DNA of 59,472 bases from Candidatus Kaiserbacteria bacterium (GTDB taxonomy: Bacteria > Patescibacteriota > Minisyncoccia > Phycocordibacterales > Phycocordibacteraceae): assembly GCA_026396675.1 (NCBI GenBank), contig JAPLWI010000011.1, positions 1 to 59,472 of the forward strand. The letters are read 5' to 3'. Shown here piece by piece: positions 3,666-31,793 of this stretch (position 1 is the stretch's first letter; the number at the start of each line of letters is the position of its first letter). Under the pieces are notes generated by a model. It saw nothing but the letters and a program-made list of their open reading frames with translations. It was not told where the DNA came from and did no database searches. A program made the translations under genes and the position numbers.

Positions 3666-3881
3666 ATGTTTCCATTTTTTAACAAAACAAAAGACGTTAA
3701 GGGGAAGTGGCGCAAAATTTCCGATTTGACACCTGGACTTGAAATCGCTGTTCCTTCCGAGAACGGAAATGTTGCTTGGGATGAAATAACTTCCATAAAA
3801 CCAGTTGGCCGCGAGCAGGTTTACGATATTGAGGTAGAGGGAACACACAACTTCGTCGGCGACGATATTTTTGCGCATAAC
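3666..3881 (+). other. Split-intein C fragment (IntC, about 72 aa; +1 Thr codon 3882-3884)
   Basis: Block F is VYDIEVEGTHNFV. Block G is IFAHN followed by Thr. Confidence 0.75.
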
Positions 3882-4973
3882 ACCTATGTCTTGAAGTCGG
3901 GCAATCTGTCGGCTAATGCTCCTTCCGATGTTTTGAATGCCGATGACAAGAGTGTTGATATTTATAAACTTGCAACTTACGCGCTGTCAGAAGAACAATC
4001 GCTTGCGGCTAAAGTGGATGCGGAGCAGACGGAAATGGTCTCGCTCGAAGCGCGCGTGGAAGCGCTGGAAACAGGATCCGTGTCATCCGGTGGCAACTTC
4101 GGCACGGGGACGCTCGGCACGGGGTTGGCGAACGCCTTGAACGGCTTCGGCGTATTAATACAAAAGGGCATCGCGCAATTTAATACGCTCGTATTCCAAC
4201 GGCTCGTCGCGGCGACTGATTCCACAGGTGCTTCCTCAGCTGGTTCTGTCAGCATCTTGACGGGAAATGTGGTTGCGCAGGTCACCAATTCATTGGTAAT
4301 GCCGTCCACGAAGGTCTTCATCACATTCAATTCGCAAATTACCGGAAGCTGGTGGGTGAGCGACAAAGCTACTGGCTCGTTCCGCGTTGTCCTCTCGACA
4401 CCGCAGGCCAGCGATGTCTCATTTGATTACTTTTTGGTTCAAACGGAAGGTCAAATTTCAACGAGTACGGCGGCTGTCAGCGATCAACAAACAAACAATA
4501 ATTCTTCCGTTACAACGGCACCGATTATTGTAGAAAACTCGAGTGCCGAAACATCCGATACAACGGCAACAACTACTGCGACTTCAACGCCGGAATCTTC
4601 AGACACCACTCCGCCGGTCGTGACACTCATTGGCGAGGCGGCGATACAGATAAATGTTGGTGGCACATTCACTGACCCCGGCGCAACTGCGACTGACCCA
4701 GTCGACGGTGATGTGACCTCGAAGATTGTGGTGACCGGTTCGGTCAATACGGCAACGCCCGGACTTTACACACTCACCTATTCAGCTTCGAATGCGGCAG
4801 GGAATACAGGCACCGTGTCGCGCGTTGTCACAGTCCTCGCACCTGCTGAAACTCCAGCCCCAGCCGATGGTTCGACAAACTCACCACCTGACGATACAAC
4901 CGCGCCGACTGAACCAGCAGCACCTGCTCCTGAAACACCCACCACTCCCGCTGTAGAAACACCAGTGGGTTGA
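3666..4973 (+). CDS. Split-intein C half fused to the C-extein of the fibre/surface protein (coiled coil, Thr/Ser-rich linker, Ig-like DUF5011-type module, Pro/Thr tail)
   Basis: It starts with ...GREQVYDIEVEGTHNFVGDDIFAHN|T (intein blocks F and G, with +1 Thr). The extein follows with LEARVEALETGS coiled coil and TPPVVTLIGEAAIQINVGGTFTDPGATATDPVDGDVT...YTLTYSASNAAGN (Ig-like). Confidence 0.8.
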   Translation: MFPFFNKTKDVKGKWRKISDLTPGLEIAVPSENGNVAWDEITSIKPVGREQVYDIEVEGTHNFVGDDIFAHNTYVLKSGNLSANAPSDVLNADDKSVDIYKLATYALSEEQSLAAKVDAEQTEMVSLEARVEALETGSVSSGGNFGTGTLGTGLANALNGFGVLIQKGIAQFNTLVFQRLVAATDSTGASSAGSVSILTGNVVAQVTNSLVMPSTKVFITFNSQITGSWWVSDKATGSFRVVLSTPQASDVSFDYFLVQTEGQISTSTAAVSDQQTNNNSSVTTAPIIVENSSAETSDTTATTTATSTPESSDTTPPVVTLIGEAAIQINVGGTFTDPGATATDPVDGDVTSKIVVTGSVNTATPGLYTLTYSASNAAGNTGTVSRVVTVLAPAETPAPADGSTNSPPDDTTAPTEPAAPAPETPTTPAVETPVG

Positions 4974-23515: not shown

Positions 23516-24214
23516 ATGACGGCAGGAAGTGACAAGGTAGAATTGAAGCGCCTCTTCGACACAGGGGCGCATTTCGCGCAGGTAAAAAGCCGTCGTCATC
23601 CTTCGATGAAGCCGTACTTGGTGGGAACGAAAGGGCGACAAGAGATTATTGACCTAGTGCAAACAACCGAACAGCTTGAGGCCGCGAAAGCCGTCATGGA
23701 AGCGTTTGCGAAGGAAGGGAAGACAATATTATTCGTTGGAGGGAAAGTAGAAATTGCCGCAGTCGTGAAAAAAGCGGCAGAGGAAATCGCCGCTCCATTT
23801 GTCGCGGCACGCTGGCTAGGCGGTACGATATCTAACTGGAGTGAAATAAAAAAGCGCGTTGAACGCCTTGCTGAACTTTCTGAAAATGCGGCGACGGGAG
23901 CGAGCGCCAAACAGCATACCAAACTTGAGCTAGTGCATATCGACCGCGAGAAGAAGCGACTCGAAGAACGGCTAGACGGCATCACGACTTTAACGAAACA
24001 TCCGGACGCTCTTCTTGTTGTCGACACCAAGCACGAAAAGCATGCGGTAAAAGAGGCGAATGATGCGGGTATTCCCGTTATCGCGATTATGAATTCCGAT
24101 TGCGACTTGCGTAACGCGGCATATCCAATCGTCGCAAATGACGCATCCCGCGAGACGGTTCGATTTATCCTCGCCGAGCTCACAAGTGCATTTAAAAAAG
24201 GACAAACAGCATAA
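23516..24214 (+). CDS. rpsB: 30S ribosomal protein S2
   Basis: LFDTGAHFAQVKSRRHPSMKPYL, ILFVGGK, RWLGGTISNW, DALLVVDTKHEKHAVKEANDAGIPVIAIMNSD. Confidence 0.93.
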   Translation: MTAGSDKVELKRLFDTGAHFAQVKSRRHPSMKPYLVGTKGRQEIIDLVQTTEQLEAAKAVMEAFAKEGKTILFVGGKVEIAAVVKKAAEEIAAPFVAARWLGGTISNWSEIKKRVERLAELSENAATGASAKQHTKLELVHIDREKKRLEERLDGITTLTKHPDALLVVDTKHEKHAVKEANDAGIPVIAIMNSDCDLRNAAYPIVANDASRETVRFILAELTSAFKKGQTA

Positions 24215-24223
24215 TGTATTGAG

Positions 24224-24266
24224 GGACTTCGTAAATCCATCATCTGATGATGGATTTACGAAGTCC
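24224..24266. repeat. Perfect 43-nt palindrome (21-bp arms) between rpsB and tsf
   Basis: GGACTTCGTAAATCCATCATC-T-GATGATGGATTTACGAAGTCC. No T-tract follows. Confidence 0.9.
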
Positions 24267-24299
24267 AAACATGCATTGTATGCTATTATCTAAATTACT

Positions 24300-24761
24300 A
24301 TGGAAATCACGACTGAAATCATTAAGGAACTGCGAGAAATGACCGGTGTGTCAGTTATGCAGTGTAAAAAAGCGCTTGAAGAAGCGGGCGGGAATCTCGC
24401 TCAGGCCGATTCAGAATCTGATTTTGTCGCAAGGAATCCGGAATTTTGCGCGCTTGCACGCGAGATTGCAATGCAGGTCGCAGCGACCGATCCAAAATAT
24501 ATTACTGTTACGGAGATTCCGAGCGAAGCGAGGAATGCTGCGATTGCGGTATTCGAGAAAGAAGTCGTAGGTAAACCGAAAGATATACAGTCGAAAATTA
24601 TGGAAGGAAAACTATCAAGTTACTTCCAAGACCAAGTGCTTTTGGATCAGCCATTCATCAAAGACGAGACCAAAACGGTGCGTGACTTACTCAATGAAGC
24701 GACACAGAAATTTGGCGAACGCATTGAAGTGAGTCGTTTCGTTCGTATATCGGTTCGTTAA
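24300..24761 (+). CDS. tsf: Elongation factor Ts, unusually short (153 aa)
   Basis: The N-terminal UBA-like segment is IIKELREMTGVSVMQCKKALEEAGGNL. It runs directly into SDFVARNPEF, followed by QVLLDQPFIKDETKTV. Confidence 0.8.
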   Translation: MEITTEIIKELREMTGVSVMQCKKALEEAGGNLAQADSESDFVARNPEFCALAREIAMQVAATDPKYITVTEIPSEARNAAIAVFEKEVVGKPKDIQSKIMEGKLSSYFQDQVLLDQPFIKDETKTVRDLLNEATQKFGERIEVSRFVRISVR

Positions 24762-25972: not shown

Positions 25973-27235
25973 TTAACGCCACGTCGTGCGTACGCCGAGT
26001 GTCACATCAGAAACTGAACGCATTAACCATAATGGCGCGATGATTCCATAAAGGAGAAGATACAGTACCATACTAAACATAAGTTTCCCAGGCGTTCTTG
26101 ACATGCGCTTGCCCACAATCATCCAACCGAATGTACCAGCGACAATCATTACTCCAAGAAGCGTGAGGACCGTTATAGGTAGATAGAACCATGTAAACGA
26201 TGAATGCCACGAGAGCATATACGAAAGCGGTGCAGCTTGTGTCATAGAGAATGCGTGTATGACATGTCGTATGACCTGAAAAATGCTCAGTAAGAAAAGA
26301 AAAATGCCGCTCACAATCGCTATGATACCGAGCGGCAAGACCAATATTCCAAGAACTGCATTTTTTTTGACGCCGAGTAAATCACGATAATCAAAGAACA
26401 TATTGCGCATGAATCCAGTTGTCCAGCGAACGCGCTGTTTGATGAGTTTGGCGAAGGTTGGAGGACCTTTTGTATATACTCGTGCGCGGATTGCATTACC
26501 GATGTGAAGTCCGGCGCGTTGCATACGCATTGCCATCTCCATATCTTCCGCGAGATACGCATGCTTGAAAAGTCCTATATTTGCGAAAATGAATCGCCGA
26601 TAGAATGAAAAAGGTCCTGGCGTAACATAAAGGCCGTTAATCGACGCAAAAACGTGTCGGAGCGTTATCGCTAGCGAGTATTCCGCATATTGCATGCGTT
26701 GAAGAATCGTACGCGGTTTGTGAATCGACATTGACGCAGTAACTGCGGAAATATGTTTATCATTGAAAGCCGCAACGATCTCGCGCAAGGCATCGGGAGC
26801 AACAAAAGAGTCAGCGTCAAGGAATCCAATAATCTCAGCATCTTTCGCGTATTCTATCCCAAGATTCATAGCAGTGAATTTCCCACCATTCTCCTTATGT
26901 AGTGCGGTGATCTGCGAATGATGAGAAAATCGGTCGATGACTAACGACGTGCCATCAGTTGAACCGTCGTCCACGAGAATAATTGAGAGTTTCTTTTTCG
27001 GATACTCAAGCTCGAGTAATGACTCCACTGTTCCGGCGATCGTGGTCTCTTCGTTCCAACAGGGAACGACAATGGCGACACGCGGAACTTCCATGGCGAA
27101 TGGCTTGATCATCTTTCCTCGGGACGCACGTGCCGGTCCCGAAAGGAAGGTCACTAGTAAAAATGACTCAAAATAGAGCGCGATGAAAAGAAATGGGTAG
27201 GTAAGTACCTGTAGATTCATATAATAATGGCACAA
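25973..27235 (-). CDS. Family 2 glycosyltransferase, membrane-embedded processive type
   Basis: VAIVVPCWNEE...LVDDGSTDGT, FLDADS and QRVRWTTG (QxxRW), with flanking TM helices. Confidence 0.85.
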   Translation of the reverse strand: MCHYYMNLQVLTYPFLFIALYFESFLLVTFLSGPARASRGKMIKPFAMEVPRVAIVVPCWNEETTIAGTVESLLELEYPKKKLSIILVDDGSTDGTSLVIDRFSHHSQITALHKENGGKFTAMNLGIEYAKDAEIIGFLDADSFVAPDALREIVAAFNDKHISAVTASMSIHKPRTILQRMQYAEYSLAITLRHVFASINGLYVTPGPFSFYRRFIFANIGLFKHAYLAEDMEMAMRMQRAGLHIGNAIRARVYTKGPPTFAKLIKQRVRWTTGFMRNMFFDYRDLLGVKKNAVLGILVLPLGIIAIVSGIFLFLLSIFQVIRHVIHAFSMTQAAPLSYMLSWHSSFTWFYLPITVLTLLGVMIVAGTFGWMIVGKRMSRTPGKLMFSMVLYLLLYGIIAPLWLMRSVSDVTLGVRTTWR

Positions 27236-27254: not shown

Positions 27255-28385
27255 CTAACGAATTATCGCTCCGAAATTTTTAACTGTTGCGGTCTCTAGT
27301 TCTTTATGAAGCGCGTTCACTTCTTCGTTGGTAAGTGTGCGGTCCAAACTGCGATAAGTGATTCGGTATGCGTAACTCACCTTGCCGACACCCAATTTTT
27401 CTTCATTTTCATATTTATCAATGAGTTCCATTTGTTCGGCCGTATCCCCAATGACATCGCGCACCAGATCAAAATAATTATTCGGTTCAAAATCTTTGTT
27501 CACGATAAATGAGATATCGCGAATGATAGACGGGTATTTACTTACCTCTTTAAATTTCGTCCCGAGCCGAAGCTGTTTCTTAACACGGTCGTCATCTGAC
27601 CAAAGAAGACGAATATCTGGAAGTTCCATCGAAATAATCGCAAGTCGTTCAAGACCGAAACCGAATGCCCAGCCATTATATCCCTCAAGACCCATCTTTT
27701 TCAAAACGCTTTTTTTCGGCATTCCGCCACCGAGTATTTCTACCCACTCGTCACCAATTTTAACTTCGACCTGCAAAGAAGGATCCGTATACGGGAAGAT
27801 ATCATCCAAGAAGCGATATTCAGTTTCTTTGCCAAAGACGCTCTGCACGATTTCAGACAGTATGTTTTTTAAGTCATCGAGTACCAAGGTTTTCTCAGAG
27901 TCCGGTACCAAATACCATCCACCCATCTGATGGAAAATATTCATGTGCCGGCGGTCAATTTCGTCTTTGCGATACACTTTTCCGTAACAGAGTGTGCCCA
28001 ACGATTCGCCATTTGCAATGCGCGCCTTAATCTCCGGCTGGTTTAAATAGTAGTACCAGAATACAGTATCGTGCGTGCGCAGGATGTTCTTGTCGTCTGC
28101 ATAATATGTGTCCGAGGTTGAACGTGCTGGGTGGTCGTCGGGGAAGTCGAATAGGTCAAAACTGATGCTCGCAGGCACTATCTCTGGTATTTCAATAACA
28201 TCAAATCCTTTCACTATAGGCAGTTCTTTCACGCGTTTTACGATTTCAGCTATAGGACTTGTGCTGGTTCGTGATAAGTCGGGCATTGCCAAATAACGCT
28301 TCATTCTCGCCGCGTCAACATCGGATCGTGCCTCTAAATCTGCCCGTAATCGTTCCTCCTCCGCCATCGATATTTTGATATCCAT
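27255..28385 (-). CDS. pheS: Phenylalanine-tRNA ligase, single-chain mitochondrial-type (alpha catalytic core + FDX-ACB domain)
   Basis: The class II core has HPARSTSDTYY and GWAFGFGLERLAI. The C-terminal segment YPSIIRDISFIV...YFDLVRDVIGD...LIDKYE...YAYRITYRSLDRTLTNEEVN is an FDX-ACB domain. Confidence 0.85.
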   Translation of the reverse strand: MDIKISMAEEERLRADLEARSDVDAARMKRYLAMPDLSRTSTSPIAEIVKRVKELPIVKGFDVIEIPEIVPASISFDLFDFPDDHPARSTSDTYYADDKNILRTHDTVFWYYYLNQPEIKARIANGESLGTLCYGKVYRKDEIDRRHMNIFHQMGGWYLVPDSEKTLVLDDLKNILSEIVQSVFGKETEYRFLDDIFPYTDPSLQVEVKIGDEWVEILGGGMPKKSVLKKMGLEGYNGWAFGFGLERLAIISMELPDIRLLWSDDDRVKKQLRLGTKFKEVSKYPSIIRDISFIVNKDFEPNNYFDLVRDVIGDTAEQMELIDKYENEEKLGVGKVSYAYRITYRSLDRTLTNEEVNALHKELETATVKNFGAIIR

Positions 28386-28390
28386 AATTG

Positions 28391-28419
28391 TTCCAGAATA
28401 GCATATTTTATGCTACAAT
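28391..28419 (+). promoter_or_regulatory. Candidate gyrB promoter
   Basis: TTCCAG-N17-TACAAT with a TG-containing extended -10 (TGCTACAAT). It overlaps the small inverted repeat TAGCAT-ATTTT-ATGCTA. Confidence 0.45.
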
Positions 28420-28434
28420 ATAGGAAATAACGGT

Positions 28435-30516
28435 ATGGTAAAAATATCTGAAAAAGAGCCTAAAAAGAAGGCCTATGACGCCTCGTCTATTACCGTCCTC
28501 GAAGGGCTCGAGCCGGTGAGAAAGCGCCCTGGAATGTACATCGGTACAACTGGTCCTGACGGTCTCCATCATCTCGTCTCAGAAATATTTGATAACGCAC
28601 GTGATGAAGCAATGGTGGGCAGATGCGACGATATAGAAGTCGCGCTTTTGCCGGATGGTTATGTACGCGTTGCCGATAACGGCAACGGCATTCCTGTAGG
28701 CATCCATCCGAAAACGAAGGTTTCAGCGCTTGAGACCATTATGACGACGCTTCATGCTGGCGGTAAATTTGATAATGAAGCGTACAAGGTATCGGGCGGC
28801 TTGCACGGTGTAGGCGCGTCGGTGGTAAATGCCCTTTCAGAAAAAACGAAAGTGGTCGTGCATCAGGACGGTGGTATGCATATGCAGGAATATAAAATCG
28901 GCAAGCCGCTCGCAAAAGTGAAAAAAATCGGCACCAGTAAAGAACACGGTACCATCGTACTCTTCAAACCGGATATTGAAATTTTCAAAGAAGGCGTCGA
29001 ATTTAATTTGGATAAAATCATAACGCATCTGCGTCAACAGGCATATTTGGTAAAAGGCGTTCGAGTTTCGGTGGTTGATTCACGAACGAACGAAAAAGCA
29101 TTTGAGACAGACACGATTTTTCTTCGTGAACAAAAACTCGGTGTTCCATCAACGACATTCTATTTCGAAGGCGGTTTGAAATCGCTTGTTGCATTCCATA
29201 ACAAACACCAGACACCCATACATAAAAATATTTTTTATGTTGAACGTGAACAGGACAAAGTCACGGTCGAAGTTGCATTCCAATATGTTGATGACATTAC
29301 ATCGAGAATCACCGCTTTTGCGAACAATACCTATAACATCGAAGGTGGTACGCACGTCACTGGCTTTAAAACGGCGCTCACACGCTCTCTGAACACATAC
29401 GGAAGAAACGCAAATATTTTGAAAGAGAAGGACGAGAATTTTACCGGTGATGATGTGCTTGAAGGCATCACAGCTGTCATTTCAGTGAAGCTTCCAGAAA
29501 TTCAATTCGAAGGACAAACTAAAGCGAAGCTCGGTTCGGTCGAGGCACAGGGCGCGGTTGGGACGATTTTCGGCGAAGCTCTCGGTGCTTTTCTTGAAGA
29601 AAATCCGGACGATGCACGCGCGATTATCAATAAAGTTCTTCTAGCGCTTAAATCGCGAAAGGCGGCGAAGGCGGCGAAGGATTCGGTACTACGCAAAGGC
29701 GCGTTGGAAGGGATGACCCTCCCAGGTAAGCTCGCTGACTGTCAGACCAAGAGTGCGGAAGAAGGTGAACTATTTATCGTTGAAGGTGACTCGGCCGGCG
29801 GTTCATCGAAGCAAGGTCGAGATCGTCGCACGCAGGCGATTCTCCCGTTGCGTGGCAAAATCTTGAATGTCGAGCGCGCGCGCCTTGACCGTATGCTCGC
29901 TTCAGTTGAAATTCGCGCGCTTATAGTCGCACTCGGTACAGCTATAGGTGATGTCTTTGATTTATCAAAATTGCGCTATCACAAAATTATAATCGCAACC
30001 GATGCCGATGTTGATGGTGCGCACATTCGTACACTACTTCTCACACTTTTTTACCGTCATTTCCGGCCGGTTATCGATGGTGGTTTTATATATATCGCTC
30101 AGCCGCCACTCTATAAAATCACGAAAGGGAAGGCGATGGCGTATGCGTATTCTGATAAAGAAAAAGAATCGGTGCTGAAAGAATTCGGTATCGCGGCGAA
30201 TGAAGTAGCGGTAGTCAGTGAGGGTGACGAAGTAGAATCAGTAGAAGAAACTGCAGAAGCCGCCTCCGCTGAAGCTACGGCGAGCCAAAGGAAACCAACT
30301 AAGGTAAATATTCAGCGCTATAAAGGTCTCGGCGAAATGAATCCGAGCGAGCTCTGGGAGACGACGATGAATCCGGCGCGGCGCGTGCTGAAGCGCGTGA
30401 ATGTTGAAGATGCCGAAGCAGCTGACCGCATTTTTGACATTCTCATGGGCACCGACGTCGCCGCACGCAAGTCCTTCATCCAATCAAACGCGAAATTGGC
30501 GACAGTGGATTTATAA
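28435..30516 (+). CDS. gyrB: DNA gyrase subunit B
   Basis: YDASSITVLEGLEPVRKRPGMYIG, GGLHGVGASVVNALS, EGDSAGGS, PLRGKILNVE, KGLGEMNP. Confidence 0.97.
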   Translation: MVKISEKEPKKKAYDASSITVLEGLEPVRKRPGMYIGTTGPDGLHHLVSEIFDNARDEAMVGRCDDIEVALLPDGYVRVADNGNGIPVGIHPKTKVSALETIMTTLHAGGKFDNEAYKVSGGLHGVGASVVNALSEKTKVVVHQDGGMHMQEYKIGKPLAKVKKIGTSKEHGTIVLFKPDIEIFKEGVEFNLDKIITHLRQQAYLVKGVRVSVVDSRTNEKAFETDTIFLREQKLGVPSTTFYFEGGLKSLVAFHNKHQTPIHKNIFYVEREQDKVTVEVAFQYVDDITSRITAFANNTYNIEGGTHVTGFKTALTRSLNTYGRNANILKEKDENFTGDDVLEGITAVISVKLPEIQFEGQTKAKLGSVEAQGAVGTIFGEALGAFLEENPDDARAIINKVLLALKSRKAAKAAKDSVLRKGALEGMTLPGKLADCQTKSAEEGELFIVEGDSAGGSSKQGRDRRTQAILPLRGKILNVERARLDRMLASVEIRALIVALGTAIGDVFDLSKLRYHKIIIATDADVDGAHIRTLLLTLFYRHFRPVIDGGFIYIAQPPLYKITKGKAMAYAYSDKEKESVLKEFGIAANEVAVVSEGDEVESVEETAEAASAEATASQRKPTKVNIQRYKGLGEMNPSELWETTMNPARRVLKRVNVEDAEAADRIFDILMGTDVAARKSFIQSNAKLATVDL

Positions 30517-30529
30517 TTTCTTGAGAAAA

Positions 30530-30546
30530 GGGAAGTCTGACTTCCC
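30530..30546. terminator. Short hairpin between convergent gyrB and thrS
   Basis: GGGAAGTC-T-GACTTCCC flanked by A/T runs. Weak as a terminator. Confidence 0.35.
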
Positions 30547-31793
30547 TATTTACGCGTTTTGATTTCTTCGGTCGCGCGGGATATAAAGTTGGCGAGCGAA
30601 GTGATGTCTAGTTTGCCCGCATCACGACTCTCAATTGAAACAGTTTTTGATTCGGCTTCTTTATCACCGACGACGATGAGATAGGGAATTTTTTCCATCT
30701 TCGCAGAGCGGATTTTTTTACCAAGGGTTTCGTTTGAGTCGTCAACTTCAACGCGGATATTTTCTGCCTTCAGTCCATCAGTAACTTCCTGCGCGTATTT
30801 TGCGTGTTTCTCCGATACGCTCAACACCTTGGTCTGCACCGGCGAGAGCCAGAGCGGCAACACCCCAGCTGTGTGTTCAAGAAGAACGGCAGCAAAGCGT
30901 TCGATAGAACCCATAATCGCTGAGTGAATCATAACGACCCGTTCACGCTCTCCTTTTTCATTTATACACACTAGGTCAAAACGTTCAGGCATATTGAAAT
31001 CAAGCTGGACAGTCGCCACTTGATGTTGGCGGCCTATAGAATCGGTGGCGAGAAAGTCGAGCTTCGGTCCGTAAAGCGCAGCTTCGCCAGGCGCTTCAAA
31101 CGAATCGGTACCGCGTCCAGAAGCGATTTCTCGCAGGGCATCTTCTGCCTTCTTCCAAATTTCTGGCGTACCAAGATATTTTTCTGGTGTCTTCGGATCG
31201 TGGAATGAGAGGCGTACTTTAAGTTCTGTGAACCCAAACTTTTTATAAAATGTATCAATAATGTCCCAGATCTTTAAGAACTCATCTTTAATTTGTGAAG
31301 TGCGGCAGAATACGTGACTGTCATCTTGAGTAATTGAAAGAACGCGAGTGAGACCATTTAATTCGCCTGACTGCTCATCACGATATACCATCGTCGTTTC
31401 CGCATATCTCTGTGGCATTTCACGATACGAGTGCGGTTTGCGATCAAAAATCTGAGTATGATGTGGGCAACTCATTGGCTTGAGTGCATACTCGCGTTCA
31501 TCTCGGGATTCTATTTTGAAAAGGTCGTCGGAGAATTTCTGCCAGTGTCCTGACTTCTCGTACAACTCACGCTTCGTTATATGCGGAATAGTGACGCGTT
31601 GATAATCGTATTTGGAACGCAATTCCCATACAAATCGATCAAGTTCTTGACGAAGAATGGTGCCCTTCGGTGTCCAGAGAGGAAGGCCAGAGCCAACTAA
31701 TTCGGAGAAAGTAAATAAATCAAGTTCTTTGCCGAGCTTCTTATGGTCTCGTTCTTTATCATCCATATTTACAGAATATATCACATTTCTCAA
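30546..31793 (-). CDS. thrS: Threonine-tRNA ligase, catalytic + anticodon-binding domains only (no TGS or editing domain)
   Basis: It starts at ...RDHKKLGKELDLF, which is the beginning of the class II core in full-length ThrRS. Also GHWQKFSDDLF and PLWLSPVQ. Total length is 415 aa. Confidence 0.9.
   Translation of the reverse strand: MRNVIYSVNMDDKERDHKKLGKELDLFTFSELVGSGLPLWTPKGTILRQELDRFVWELRSKYDYQRVTIPHITKRELYEKSGHWQKFSDDLFKIESRDEREYALKPMSCPHHTQIFDRKPHSYREMPQRYAETTMVYRDEQSGELNGLTRVLSITQDDSHVFCRTSQIKDEFLKIWDIIDTFYKKFGFTELKVRLSFHDPKTPEKYLGTPEIWKKAEDALREIASGRGTDSFEAPGEAALYGPKLDFLATDSIGRQHQVATVQLDFNMPERFDLVCINEKGERERVVMIHSAIMGSIERFAAVLLEHTAGVLPLWLSPVQTKVLSVSEKHAKYAQEVTDGLKAENIRVEVDDSNETLGKKIRSAKMEKIPYLIVVGDKEAESKTVSIESRDAGKLDITSLANFISRATEEIKTRK

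What the first reader, a model, noticed from the sequence alone, without database searches (positions are those of the whole stretch)
27255..28385. Mitochondrial-type single-chain phenylalanyl-tRNA synthetase in a bacterium
Seen in the sequence: one 376-codon ORF encodes the whole enzyme. The first ~280 aa are a PheRS alpha-type class II core (HPARSTSDTYY, GWAFGFGLERLAI). The last ~95 aa are KYPSIIRDISFIVNKDFEPNNYFDLVRDVIGDTAEQMELIDKYENEEKLGVGKVSYAYRITYRSLDRTLTNEEVNALHKELE, a ferredoxin-fold anticodon-binding (FDX-ACB) domain. No pheT is adjacent: the neighbours are a GT2 gene and gyrB. Established knowledge: bacterial PheRS is an (alpha-beta)2 enzyme, with the FDX-ACB domain at the C-terminal end of the beta subunit. 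Alpha core plus FDX-ACB in one chain is the architecture of monomeric mitochondrial PheRS (human FARS2, yeast Msf1), which lacks the beta-subunit editing site. The C-terminal motifs here (DISF, FYDLVR, LIDK, YRITYR, RTL..EEV) match my recollection of the FARS2 C-terminus. Inference: this organism may rely on a minimal, editing-free PheRS. That bears on both translational fidelity in CPR and the evolutionary origin of the mitochondrial enzyme.
Basis: partly seen in the sequence, partly recalled or inferred. Interest (0 to 1): 0.7.

Follow-up and report, generated by a model that had tools for sequence, protein, structure and literature searches.

The report
Single-chain mitochondrial-type PheRS in CPR bacterium
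A tiny-genome (CPR/Paceibacteria) bacterium makes its phenylalanine-charging enzyme as one short chain, as mitochondria do. The gene sits exactly where related bacteria keep the normal two-subunit enzyme, so it appears to have replaced that enzyme and its proofreading domain.

Summary
Window 27255-28385 (minus strand) encodes a 376-aa protein made of a PheRS class II catalytic core (aa 37-271) and a ferredoxin-fold anticodon-binding domain (aa 282-376), with nothing else. Its best sequence and fold matches are human mitochondrial PheRS (E 1e-59; TM 0.78-0.81 over both domains). The family is abundant in Paceibacteria (Kaiserbacteria-like and others; 63-85% identity). New result: related Paceibacteria with a canonical enzyme have rpsB-tsf...pheS-pheT-gyrB. 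In the window and in most of the 83 single-chain places examined (73 have gyrB in the locus), the single-chain gene occupies that same slot beside gyrB. No locus, assembly or near-complete contig examined carries both systems. The two types are interleaved on a GyrB tree. The single-chain protein is far better conserved than PheT. Trees show it is not a recent local pheS-pheT fusion. All single-chain forms group against canonical PheS (100% bootstrap), and the CPR clade is sister-like to the mitochondrial clade. It is not NCBI's 'SrmL mystery ligase'. The most likely reading is the sole, monomeric, editing-free housekeeping PheRS (about 0.75-0.8). Whole-genome absence of pheT could not be tested directly. 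No paper in the searchable library describes this.

The parts
27255..28385 (-). Single-chain PheRS gene (376 codons plus stop)
   Evidence: ORF and translation. Pfam tRNA-synt_2d + FDX-ACB. Best PDB sequence hit is human mtPheRS, E 1e-59. AF2 model pLDDT 92.3 with Foldseek TM 0.78-0.81 to 3CMQ/5MGH.
28278..28385 (-). N-terminal extension, aa 1-36. It is family-specific, predicted helical, and has no match in mitochondrial PheRS or PheS.
   Evidence: Lies outside the Pfam core match. AF2 predicts helices 8-18 and 23-33 at pLDDT >=90. By blastp only the Oligoflexia homologue P0125 matches aa 15-60. Conserved within the family.
27573..28277 (-). Class II catalytic core, aa 37-271. Contains motif 1 (DHPARSTSDTYY), motif 2 (GKVYRKDEIDRRHMNIFHQMGG), the Phe pocket (FPYTDPS) and motif 3 (GWAFGFGLERLA).
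   Evidence: Pfam PF01409, E 4e-53. Motif alignment with mitochondrial, SrmL and canonical PheS. Family-invariant residues. Asp106/Gly155 coupling.
27258..27542 (-). FDX-ACB anticodon-binding domain, aa 282-376 (equivalent to the B8 domain of bacterial PheT)
   Evidence: Pfam PF03147, E 1.4e-23, profile 1-94/94. 38-42% identical to five of six mitochondrial representatives (32% to P0185), against 27-36% to Paceibacteria PheT C-termini and 24% to E. coli PheT.
28386..28434 (.). 49-nt divergent intergenic region between the PheRS gene and gyrB. Presumed promoter region; none was detected above chance.
   Evidence: Coordinates. The promoter and terminator scans found no more sites than shuffled sequence.
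28435..30516 (+). gyrB, the conserved flank of the PheRS slot
   Evidence: Pfam. gyrB is in the locus in 73 of 83 single-chain places, mostly adjacent to the gene, and lies next to pheT in 36 Patescibacteria pheS-pheT loci.
25973..27235 (-). GT2 glycosyltransferase, 19 nt or more downstream on the same strand. Possibly co-transcribed. It recurs beside the slot in relatives.
   Evidence: Pfam. Synteny in L283/L284 and many other loci.
23516..24761 (+). rpsB-tsf, the other conserved flank of the slot
   Evidence: ORFs. Pfam for tsf. The same genes precede pheS-pheT in L281, L214, L246, L251 and L280, and precede the single-chain gene in L052, L057, L064 and L079.
30546..31793 (-). ThrRS of 415 aa without an editing domain. 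Context: a second editing-less class II synthetase nearby.
   Evidence: Pfam finds only tRNA-synt_2b + HGTP_anticodon.

Best explanation
This is the bacterium's housekeeping phenylalanyl-tRNA synthetase. It is built like the mitochondrial enzyme: one chain with the class II catalytic module, which activates Phe with ATP and transfers it to tRNA-Phe, fused to the ferredoxin-fold domain that reads the GAA anticodon. It most likely works as a monomer that swings from a closed to an open state on tRNA binding, as human mtPheRS does. It has no B3/B4 editing site, so Tyr-tRNA-Phe cannot be cleared in cis, and accuracy must come from the synthetic site. In this lineage it has displaced the canonical pheS-pheT pair at that pair's own chromosomal position. 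Shown here: domain composition, homology, fold, conserved catalytic motifs, positional replacement, lack of co-occurrence in all data examined, and strong purifying selection. Inferred: enzymatic activity, monomeric state, absence of any pheT elsewhere in this genome, and absence of trans-editing.
For: Architecture and homology:
- Two domains only.
- Best PDB sequence hit is human mtPheRS at E 1e-59, against 1.8e-32 for the best bacterial PheS alpha chain.
- The AF2 model (pLDDT 92.3, pTM 0.87) superposes on closed-state human mtPheRS over both domains, TM 0.78-0.81, rmsd about 3 A.
- The family representative P0121 passes NCBI's curated pheS_mito cutoff (264 vs 258).

Active site:
- Motifs 1-3 are present. 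The pocket Ala (equivalent to E. coli A294, PMC3275996) and pocket Thr (equivalent to human Thr235) are conserved and invariant in 48 family members.
- The carboxylate missing from motif 2 (Gly155) is coupled to an Asp at position 106: 189 sequences D/G, 23 with X/D or X/E, 1 exception.

Replacement:
- L281 (636-kb contig) has rpsB-tsf-GT2-x-pheS-pheT-gyrB. The window and L283/L284 (693-kb contig) have rpsB-tsf...GT2-single-chain-gyrB.
- 73 of 83 single-chain loci have gyrB in the locus, mostly beside the gene, and 36 Patescibacteria pheS-pheT loci have pheT-gyrB. Collinear cases are L052, L057, L064 and L079. No locus has both systems.
- No assembly prefix is shared between 80 single-chain genomes and 79 + 80 PheT genomes.
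- No contig length is shared between near-complete single-chain contigs (693,323; 644,815; 629,206; 616,166) and PheT contigs (1,054,716; 848,474; 722,128; 710,381; 637,345; 624,246; 621,860; 617,472; 603,205).
- 1.2 Mb of single-chain loci contain no B3_4/B5 sequence.

Selection: mean p-distance is 0.32 for the single-chain protein against 0.57 for PheT, at similar GyrB divergence.
Against: - Whole-genome absence of pheS/pheT was not shown for this organism (only 59 kb is held) or for the closed relative CP174359.1. The tools cannot scan a whole genome, and the last scan was truncated.
- The co-occurrence tests rest on truncated top-80 and top-120 lists.
- Single-chain and pheST types are interleaved on the GyrB tree, and both gene trees track GyrB locally. 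This is also what ancestral coexistence followed by differential loss would give, so some extant genomes might still hold both.
- The window protein itself is below the curated cutoffs of every NCBIfam PheRS model (238 vs 258 for pheS_mito), and PGAP labels family members 'hypothetical protein'.
- The motif-2 Glu (Tth E220 / human E159 by my recollection, a contact of the Phe amino group) is Gly here.
- A distinct bacterial single-chain family (SrmL) is regarded by NCBI curators as a ligase of unknown function, so the architecture alone does not prove PheRS activity.
- No activity data exist.
Confidence: 0.78

Rival explanations
1. It is a paralogue with another role (a non-canonical ligase like SrmL, a stress or backup PheRS, or a tRNA-dependent transferase), coexisting with a canonical pheS-pheT encoded elsewhere in the same genome.
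For: Canonical pheS-pheT exists in MAGs carrying the same lineage labels (Kaiser-, Taylor-, Vogelbacteria). The top NCBIfam hit by E-value is SrmL. The Oligoflexia homologue P0125 sits in a non-housekeeping context, and that phylum normally has pheST. Interleaving on the GyrB tree is compatible with past coexistence. Motif-2 Glu is replaced by Gly.
Against: The gene occupies the pheS-pheT slot itself, so at least that copy of pheST is gone. Co-occurrence was zero in every data set examined. The SrmL score is 242 against a cutoff of 300, and a true SrmL (P0270, 402 bits) is only 31% identical with degenerate motifs 1 and 2, whereas this family keeps them. Its conservation is similar to that of GyrB and much tighter than that of PheT.
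Confidence: 0.12
2. It arose recently and locally by a deletion that fused the resident pheS to the 3' end of the adjacent pheT (in-situ fusion). Its resemblance to mitochondrial PheRS would then be convergent.
For: It lies exactly where pheS-pheT lie. The resident Paceibacteria PheS is already minimal (about 239 aa), and PheT ends in FDX-ACB. A single internal deletion would produce this architecture.
Against: In the core-domain tree all single-chain forms (CPR, Oligoflexia-type, mitochondrial, SrmL) group against canonical PheS with 100% bootstrap, and the CPR clade is not nested in Paceibacteria PheS. The core is 26-32% identical to local PheS but 34-42% to mitochondrial and other single-chain forms. 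FDX-ACB is 38-42% identical to most mitochondrial representatives against 27-36% to local PheT. It shares the mitochondrial-type signature SxSDTYY where canonical PheS has DxxDTFW.
Confidence: 0.04
3. It is a eukaryotic (nuclear, mitochondrial-targeted) gene that contaminates or is mis-assembled into a bacterial contig.
For: The best database relatives outside the family are mostly eukaryote-like mtPheRS sequences.
Against: It is embedded between bacterial housekeeping genes with tight spacing and no introns. The same context recurs in more than 80 independent assemblies, including a closed 721-kb chromosome. GC content is uniform across the window. There is no presequence.
Confidence: 0.01

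Closest known systems
Mitochondrial monomeric PheRS (human FARS2, PDB 3CMQ/3TUP; yeast Msf1; 'PheRS-M' in AARS Online; TIGR00469)
   Same: Both are one chain made of the alpha-type catalytic module plus the B8/FDX-ACB anticodon domain, with no B1-B7 and therefore no B3/B4 editing site. It shares motif signatures (DHPxRSxSDTYY, GWAFGxGLERLA, pocket Thr, KYPxxxxDISF, YRITYR..RTL..EV). The predicted fold superposes on the closed state at TM about 0.8. PMC3275996 describes hmPheRS as exactly this chimera, fully active as a monomer and lacking quality-control domains.
   Different: It is encoded in a bacterial chromosome among housekeeping genes, with no presequence. It lacks the FARS2-type N-terminal 'GRNLHxxxxHP' segment and the insertion that splits the core in eukaryotic sequences (two-stretch alignments), and has its own helical extension of about 36-60 aa instead. 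The segment RTHDTVFWYYY replaces RTHTSAHQ. Motif-2 Glu is Gly, with Asp106 as the likely substitute, and the pocket reads FPYT where others have FPFT. It forms its own clade (99.5%) outside the eukaryotic group. The window protein scores 20 bits under the TIGR00469 cutoff.
SrmL, 'PheS-related mystery ligase' (NCBIfam NF051887)
   Same: A bacterial single-chain protein of PheS-like core plus an FDX-ACB-like C-terminus, about 350 aa. It is the highest-scoring NCBIfam model for the window protein by E-value.
   Different: The window protein scores 242 bits against a cutoff of 300. A true member (P0270, 402 bits) is only 31% identical and has lost the canonical motif 1 and 2 residues (KNNISRSSTYTHY, IIHHMD, PHPYTNEG) that the CPR family keeps.
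Canonical bacterial (alpha-beta)2 PheRS, in its reduced Paceibacteria form (PheS about 239 aa without coiled coil; PheT about 626-650 aa without B2)
   Same: Same presumed reaction and the same chromosomal slot (rpsB-tsf ... gyrB). Homologous catalytic core and FDX-ACB domain.
   Different: The canonical form has two genes, a heterotetramer, B3/B4 editing and B5 domains. The single-chain form drops about 500 residues, including the editing site. Core identity is only 26-32%, and the TIGR00468 score is 161 against a cutoff of 237.
Other bacterial single-chain homologues (Oligoflexia MAG protein MBX7144632.1 = P0125; P0127; P0131 from a recoded, probably CPR, lineage)
   Same: Nearest relatives outside the family: 40-42% core identity, same architecture, grouped with the CPR clade at 74.5% bootstrap.
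   Different: They are longer (414-456 aa), keep Asp at the motif-2 position, and P0125 lies in a non-housekeeping neighbourhood. Their function and distribution were not explored.

Membership tests
Monomeric mitochondrial-type PheRS (PheRS-M / TIGR00469) | One chain = alpha-type class II catalytic module + C-terminal FDX-ACB (B8) domain, with no B1-B7 | tested here: met
   Pfam PF01409 aa 37-271 + PF03147 aa 282-376 and nothing else in 376 aa.
Monomeric mitochondrial-type PheRS (PheRS-M / TIGR00469) | Score at or above the curated equivalog cutoff of TIGR00469 (258.35 bits) | tested here: inconclusive
   The window protein scores 238.4, which is below the cutoff. The family's 50%-cluster representative P0121 scores 264.3, which is above it. 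The model was built from eukaryotic sequences.
Monomeric mitochondrial-type PheRS (PheRS-M / TIGR00469) | Whole-chain structural equivalence to solved mtPheRS | tested here: met
   AF2 pLDDT 92.3. Foldseek top seven hits are all human mtPheRS: the six closed-state entries align at TM 0.78-0.81 and rmsd 2.8-3.2 A over about 386 columns, and the open tRNA-bound state 3TUP at TM 0.61. Bacterial PheS covers the core only.
Monomeric mitochondrial-type PheRS (PheRS-M / TIGR00469) | Phylogenetic membership of the single-chain clade | tested here: met
   The single-chain clade separates from canonical PheS at 100% bootstrap. The CPR family is a separate subclade (99.5%) beside, not inside, the eukaryotic group (NJ only).
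Monomeric mitochondrial-type PheRS (PheRS-M / TIGR00469) | Class II motifs 1-3 and Phe-pocket residues intact | tested here: met
   Motif alignment and family invariants. One deviation: the motif-2 Glu is Gly, coupled to Asp106.
Monomeric mitochondrial-type PheRS (PheRS-M / TIGR00469) | Active as a monomer; charges tRNA-Phe; no editing activity | not testable with these tools
   Needs protein biochemistry. Only the absence of the editing domain is shown.
Monomeric mitochondrial-type PheRS (PheRS-M / TIGR00469) | Eukaryotic nuclear gene whose product is imported into organelles | tested here: not met
   Bacterial chromosomal context in the window and in more than 80 loci. It therefore works like, and is homologous to, PheRS-M but is not an organellar enzyme.
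SrmL (NF051887) | Score at or above 300 bits against the equivalog model | tested here: not met
   242.1 bits. The positive control P0270 scores 402 bits.
Canonical bacterial PheS alpha subunit (TIGR00468) | Score at or above 237.45 bits; partnered with an adjacent or genomic pheT | tested here: not met
   161.1 bits. No pheT is in the window or in any of 83 single-chain loci. The genome-wide partner test could not be done.
Sole housekeeping PheRS of the organism | No other PheRS genes in the complete genome | not testable with these tools
   Only indirect support: occupation of the slot and zero co-occurrence in truncated lists.

The most novel reading that the evidence does not exclude
The single-chain (core + FDX-ACB) PheRS was invented in bacteria and not in eukaryotes. 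The mitochondrial enzyme of all eukaryotes would then descend from a bacterial single-chain lineage related to this one. Within Paceibacteria, the single-chain gene and the pheS-pheT pair would behave as two interchangeable 'cassettes' that have replaced each other repeatedly at one fixed chromosomal slot next to gyrB. That would give natural, closely related pairs of organisms with and without PheRS editing.
Probability: 0.35. Interest if true: 0.85.

Novelty: new variant of a known kind. Interest (0 to 1): 0.72.

Why it matters
Textbook and review knowledge holds that bacterial PheRS is an (alpha-beta)2 heterotetramer with a Tyr-editing site. [quoted passage not shown]

Here a large, diverse bacterial group appears to use that minimal form as its housekeeping enzyme. 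If that is right, four things follow:
- It shows that a cell, and not only an organelle with 13 proteins to make, can live without PheRS cis-editing. This fits the neighbouring editing-less ThrRS and the general reduction seen in CPR.
- It supplies bacterial outgroups that make the origin of mitochondrial PheRS testable: bacterial invention plus transfer, against eukaryote-to-bacterium transfer.
- The interleaved single-chain and pheST lineages, sharing one locus, form a natural experiment on the cost and benefit of aaRS proofreading.
- Current pipelines mis-handle the family. PGAP calls it 'hypothetical protein', and pheT_bact and pheS are commonly used as marker genes (the latter point is from my own knowledge). 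This may distort completeness estimates and annotation of Paceibacteria genomes.

Tried and rejected
- **SrmL membership.** Rejected on score and on motif degeneration in a true member.
- **Recent in-situ pheS-pheT fusion.** Rejected by the core tree and by per-domain identities.
- **Direct test for pheT in closed genome CP174359.1.** Not possible. Loci extend at most 10 kb.
- **Contig-length fingerprinting of near-complete contigs.** No overlap was found, but the lists are limited to the top 120.
- **Literature.** Seven searches found no paper linking PheRS to CPR/Patescibacteria, apart from a remark that many CPR PheT lack the B2 domain (PMC5370408). Two CPR-wide papers do not discuss it. 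Non-open-access literature is not covered.
- **Promoter and terminator scan around the gene.** No more sites than in shuffled sequence.
- **Gene-tree against GyrB-tree congruence**, used to decide between differential loss and repeated transfer. Both families track GyrB locally (rho about 0.5), so the question stays open.
- **A trans-acting tRNA-binding partner.** A tRNA_bind gene lies directly upstream only in the L080/L073 clade, not in the window or the other loci.
- **SrmL placement in the tree.** Its position inside the mitochondrial clade in the NJ tree is probably a long-branch artefact and was not interpreted.
Full report
**1. The observation**

The ORF is real and sits at the stated coordinates, but on the minus strand: 27255-28385, ATG start, 376 aa. 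Pfam finds exactly two domains:
- the PheRS class II core, PF01409, aa 37-271, E 4e-53;
- a complete FDX-ACB domain, PF03147, aa 282-376, E 1.4e-23.

The flanking genes are a GT2 glycosyltransferase (25973-27235, same strand) and gyrB (28435-30516, divergent). The window is a housekeeping stretch: rpsB, tsf, gyrB, thrS, dnaE, smc, RNase R, rpoB, rpoC, dnaG, rpoD, hisS. Its only RNA gene is one tRNA-Thr. It contains no pheT and no second pheS.

**2. What the protein resembles**

- **Solved structures, by sequence.** The best hits are human mitochondrial PheRS (3CMQ, 5MGU and related entries; E 1e-59), aligned through both domains. The best bacterial PheS alpha chain reaches E 1.8e-32, and PheT chains match only the last 100 residues.
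- **Predicted structure.** An AlphaFold2 model built on 48 family members is confident (pLDDT 92.3, pTM 0.87). Its seven best Foldseek hits are all human mtPheRS. The six closed-state entries superpose at TM 0.78-0.81 and rmsd about 3 A over about 386 columns. The open tRNA-bound state 3TUP superposes less well (TM 0.61), so the model is in the closed conformation.
- **NCBIfam.** Two near-equal best models come out: 'PheS-related mystery ligase SrmL' (242 bits, cutoff 300) and pheS_mito TIGR00469 (238 bits, cutoff 258). Canonical pheS scores 161 (cutoff 237).
- **SrmL is excluded.** A genuine SrmL (P0270, 402 bits) is only 31% identical and has lost canonical motif 1 and 2 residues, which the present family keeps. 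The family's own 50%-identity representative (P0121) passes the pheS_mito cutoff (264 bits).

**3. Distribution**

The protein belongs to a large, tightly conserved family. There are thousands of database members, and the top 120 are 70-100% identical. 157 species-representative genomes were found from six exact peptides alone. MAG labels include Kaiser-, Nomura-, Colwell-, Zambryski-, Taylor-, Vogel-, Lipton- and Doudnabacteria, i.e. Paceibacteria/Parcubacteria. The window's closest relatives are Kaiserbacteria-like (80-85% identity; GyrB about 90%). One carrier is a closed 721-kb chromosome (CP174359.1), and others lie on 616-693-kb contigs. GenBank/PGAP calls members 'hypothetical protein', while JGI calls them 'PheRS alpha chain'. 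At 50% clustering the whole family collapses to about one representative. The next relatives (38-47% identity) are an Oligoflexia MAG protein, two unnamed bacterial sequences, and many eukaryote-type mtPheRS sequences. One of the unnamed sequences, P0131, does not translate in table 11, so it is probably from a recoded CPR lineage.

**4. Is it the only PheRS?**

Only 59 kb of this genome is held, and no tool scans a whole genome. I therefore tested it indirectly.

(a) Canonical pheS-pheT does exist in Patescibacteria, including MAGs labelled Portnoy-, Kaiser-, Taylor-, Vogel- and Wolfebacteria. pheS always lies immediately upstream of pheT. Both are reduced: PheS is about 239 aa without the coiled coil, and PheT is about 626-650 aa without B2.

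(b) Synteny is the key result.
- In a pheST-type Paceibacterium (L281, 636-kb contig) the order is L25-SLT-L31-RF1-rpsB-tsf-x-GT2-x-pheS-pheT-gyrB.
- In the single-chain relative L284, and in the window, the order is L25-SLT-x-L31-RF1-rpsB-tsf-...-GT2-single-chain-gyrB.
- Across all loci held, 73 of 83 single-chain places have gyrB in the locus, mostly beside the gene, and 36 Patescibacteria pheS-pheT loci have pheT-gyrB. The non-Patescibacteria pheT loci examined showed no gyrB nearby.
- Four single-chain loci (L052, L057, L064, L079) are perfectly collinear: rpsB, tsf, single-chain and gyrB on one strand.
- No locus has both systems.

The single-chain gene therefore occupies the pheS-pheT slot. 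At minimum, the ancestral copy of pheST is gone from this chromosome region.

(c) No assembly is shared between the 80 single-chain genomes and the 79 + 80 PheT genomes returned.

(d) No contig length is shared between near-complete single-chain contigs and near-complete PheT contigs. This held in two PheT searches centred on the nearest pheST lineages.

(e) 1.2 Mb of single-chain loci contain no B3_4/B5 sequence.

All lists are truncated, so this is strong circumstantial evidence and not proof.

**5. Evolutionary pattern**

- **GyrB tree.** On a GyrB NJ tree (101 loci) the two types are interleaved, with good support at several nodes. T_L251 groups with M_L014 and M_L026 at 100%. M_L025 groups with T_L227 and T_L237 at 100%. 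A pheST clade is sister to the window's clade at 52%.
- **Congruence.** Both gene families follow GyrB locally (same nearest neighbours; rho about 0.5). I cannot decide between repeated replacement at the slot and ancient coexistence with differential loss.
- **Conservation.** The single-chain protein is much better conserved than PheT among comparably diverged genomes (mean p-distance 0.32 against 0.57; GyrB 0.27-0.32). This is what an essential enzyme would show.

**6. Origin of the gene**

A core-domain NJ tree (201 columns, 200 bootstraps) groups all single-chain forms against canonical PheS at 100%. It recovers the CPR family as a clade at 99.5%. It joins that clade to the Oligoflexia/P0127/P0131 sequences at 74.5% and places this group beside the mitochondrial-type clade. 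The CPR family is not nested in Paceibacteria PheS.

Per-domain identities agree:
- **Core:** 40-42% to the other bacterial single-chain proteins, 34-41% to the mitochondrial type, and 26-32% to any PheS, with no preference for local PheS.
- **FDX-ACB:** 38-42% to five of six mitochondrial representatives (32% to the sixth, P0185), 27-36% to Paceibacteria PheT, and 24% to E. coli PheT.

The gene is therefore not a recent local pheS-pheT fusion. It shares the fusion ancestor with mitochondrial PheRS and displaced pheST in situ. These trees cannot settle the direction of transfer: bacteria to the eukaryotic ancestor, eukaryote to bacteria, or both from a third lineage.

**7. Mechanism**

- **Shown.** The protein keeps motif 1 (DHPARSTSDTYY), motif 2 (GKVYRKDEIDRRHMNIFHQ) and motif 3 (GWAFGFGLERLA). 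Motif 3 retains the Ala equivalent to E. coli A294 / T. thermophilus A314, the size gate against para-substituted rings (PMC3275996). It also keeps the pocket Thr (human Thr235; PMC3275996) within FPYTDPS, and the FDX-ACB signatures it shares with FARS2. These residues are invariant in 48 family members.
- **A peculiarity.** The Glu of 'FHQxEG' is Gly155, while the residue after the motif-1-region His is Asp106 (RTHDT in place of RTHTS). By my recollection, not verified here, that Glu corresponds to T. thermophilus E220 / human E159 and contacts the substrate amino group. Across 213 sequences the pairing is D106/G155 in 189 and X106/(D or E)155 in 23, with one exception. This suggests the carboxylate relocated and was not lost, but it may reflect only one or a few events.
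- **Inferred.** By homology, the enzyme activates Phe, binds the GAA anticodon with the FDX-ACB domain, and needs a closed-to-open domain rotation to charge tRNA, as shown for human mtPheRS (3CMQ against 3TUP; PMC3275996). It has no B3/B4 domain and therefore no cis-editing of Tyr-tRNA-Phe.
- **Supporting context.** The neighbouring ThrRS (415 aa) also lacks its editing and TGS domains. This fits a general loss of synthetase proofreading in this organism.

**8. Novelty**

The architecture is that of a known kind (PheRS-M). What appears new is fourfold:
- its use as the apparent housekeeping enzyme of a large bacterial group;
- its distinct subfamily features (N-terminal helical extension, RTHDTVFWYYY segment, D106/G155 pairing, FPYT pocket);
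- its positional displacement of pheS-pheT;
- the patchy alternation of the two systems among close relatives.

The reviews I could read treat the monomeric form as exclusively mitochondrial (PMC3275996; PMC11580382). Seven full-text searches found nothing on it in CPR. Databases partly 'know' it, since TIGR00469 hits some members and JGI names them PheRS alpha. Closed-access literature was not searchable, so prior description cannot be excluded.

**9. Verdict**

The best explanation is a sole, monomeric, editing-free PheRS that replaced pheS-pheT in situ (confidence about 0.78). The main rival is a paralogue coexisting with a pheST elsewhere in the genome (about 0.12). Interest is 0.72.

**Limits.** The trees are NJ only, the co-occurrence lists are truncated, and there is no whole-genome scan and no biochemistry.

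Noticed in passing
window 30546-31793 (-): ThrRS is only 415 aa, with the class II core and HGTP anticodon domain but no TGS or tRNA_SAD editing domain. The orthologue in L283 is 410 aa with the same two domains. This is a second editing-less synthetase, about 2 kb from the single-chain PheRS.
   Followed up: partly
L080 9566-9976 (+); L073 4631-5035 (+): A stand-alone 134-136-aa tRNA_bind (PF01588; PheT-B2/Trbp111-like) gene lies directly upstream of the single-chain PheRS on the same strand (18-nt gap in L080). It occurs only in this two-genome clade and may be a trans-acting tRNA-binding helper.
   Followed up: partly
proteins P0286, P0288, P0291, P0293, P0298 and others: A subset of Patescibacteria PheT-like proteins (about 775-815 aa) carries an NlpC/P60 peptidase domain (PF00877) in addition to B3_4, B5 and FDX-ACB. 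NCBI names some of them 'beta subunit-related protein'.
   Followed up: no
L281 9279-11896; L202-L280: Canonical PheRS in Paceibacteria is itself reduced. PheS is about 239 aa and starts at the catalytic core with no N-terminal coiled coil. PheT is about 626-650 aa without the B2 domain. PheT is very divergent between relatives (mean p-distance 0.57).
   Followed up: partly
L285 9463-10833; L286 154-1524 (protein P0131): A 456-aa single-chain PheRS homologue lies next to an F-type ATPase operon on contigs whose gene does not translate under table 11. This suggests a recoded (Gracilibacteria/Absconditabacteria-like) lineage also uses a single-chain PheRS.
   Followed up: no
L287 10001-11245 (protein P0125, Oligoflexia MAG JAIBBV010000034.1): The closest non-CPR relative (42% identity) is annotated 'hypothetical protein' and sits among metabolic genes, not translation genes. 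It may be a paralogue in a bacterium that has normal pheST.
   Followed up: no
window 3666-4973 (+): A 435-aa ORF has an Intein_splicing hit (aa 20-72, E 3.6e-9) and a bacterial surface Ig-like domain (aa 320-390), an odd combination.
   Followed up: no
window 24300-24761 (+): EF-Ts is only 153 aa, matching only the C-terminal half of the EF_TS profile plus a weak N-terminal UBA-like hit. This is another shortened translation factor.
   Followed up: no
window 27255-28385, aa 106 and 155: Two active-site positions are tightly coupled across the family: Asp106/Gly155 in 189 sequences, against Asn/Thr/Ile/Gly106 with Asp or Glu155 in 23, with one exception.
   Followed up: partly
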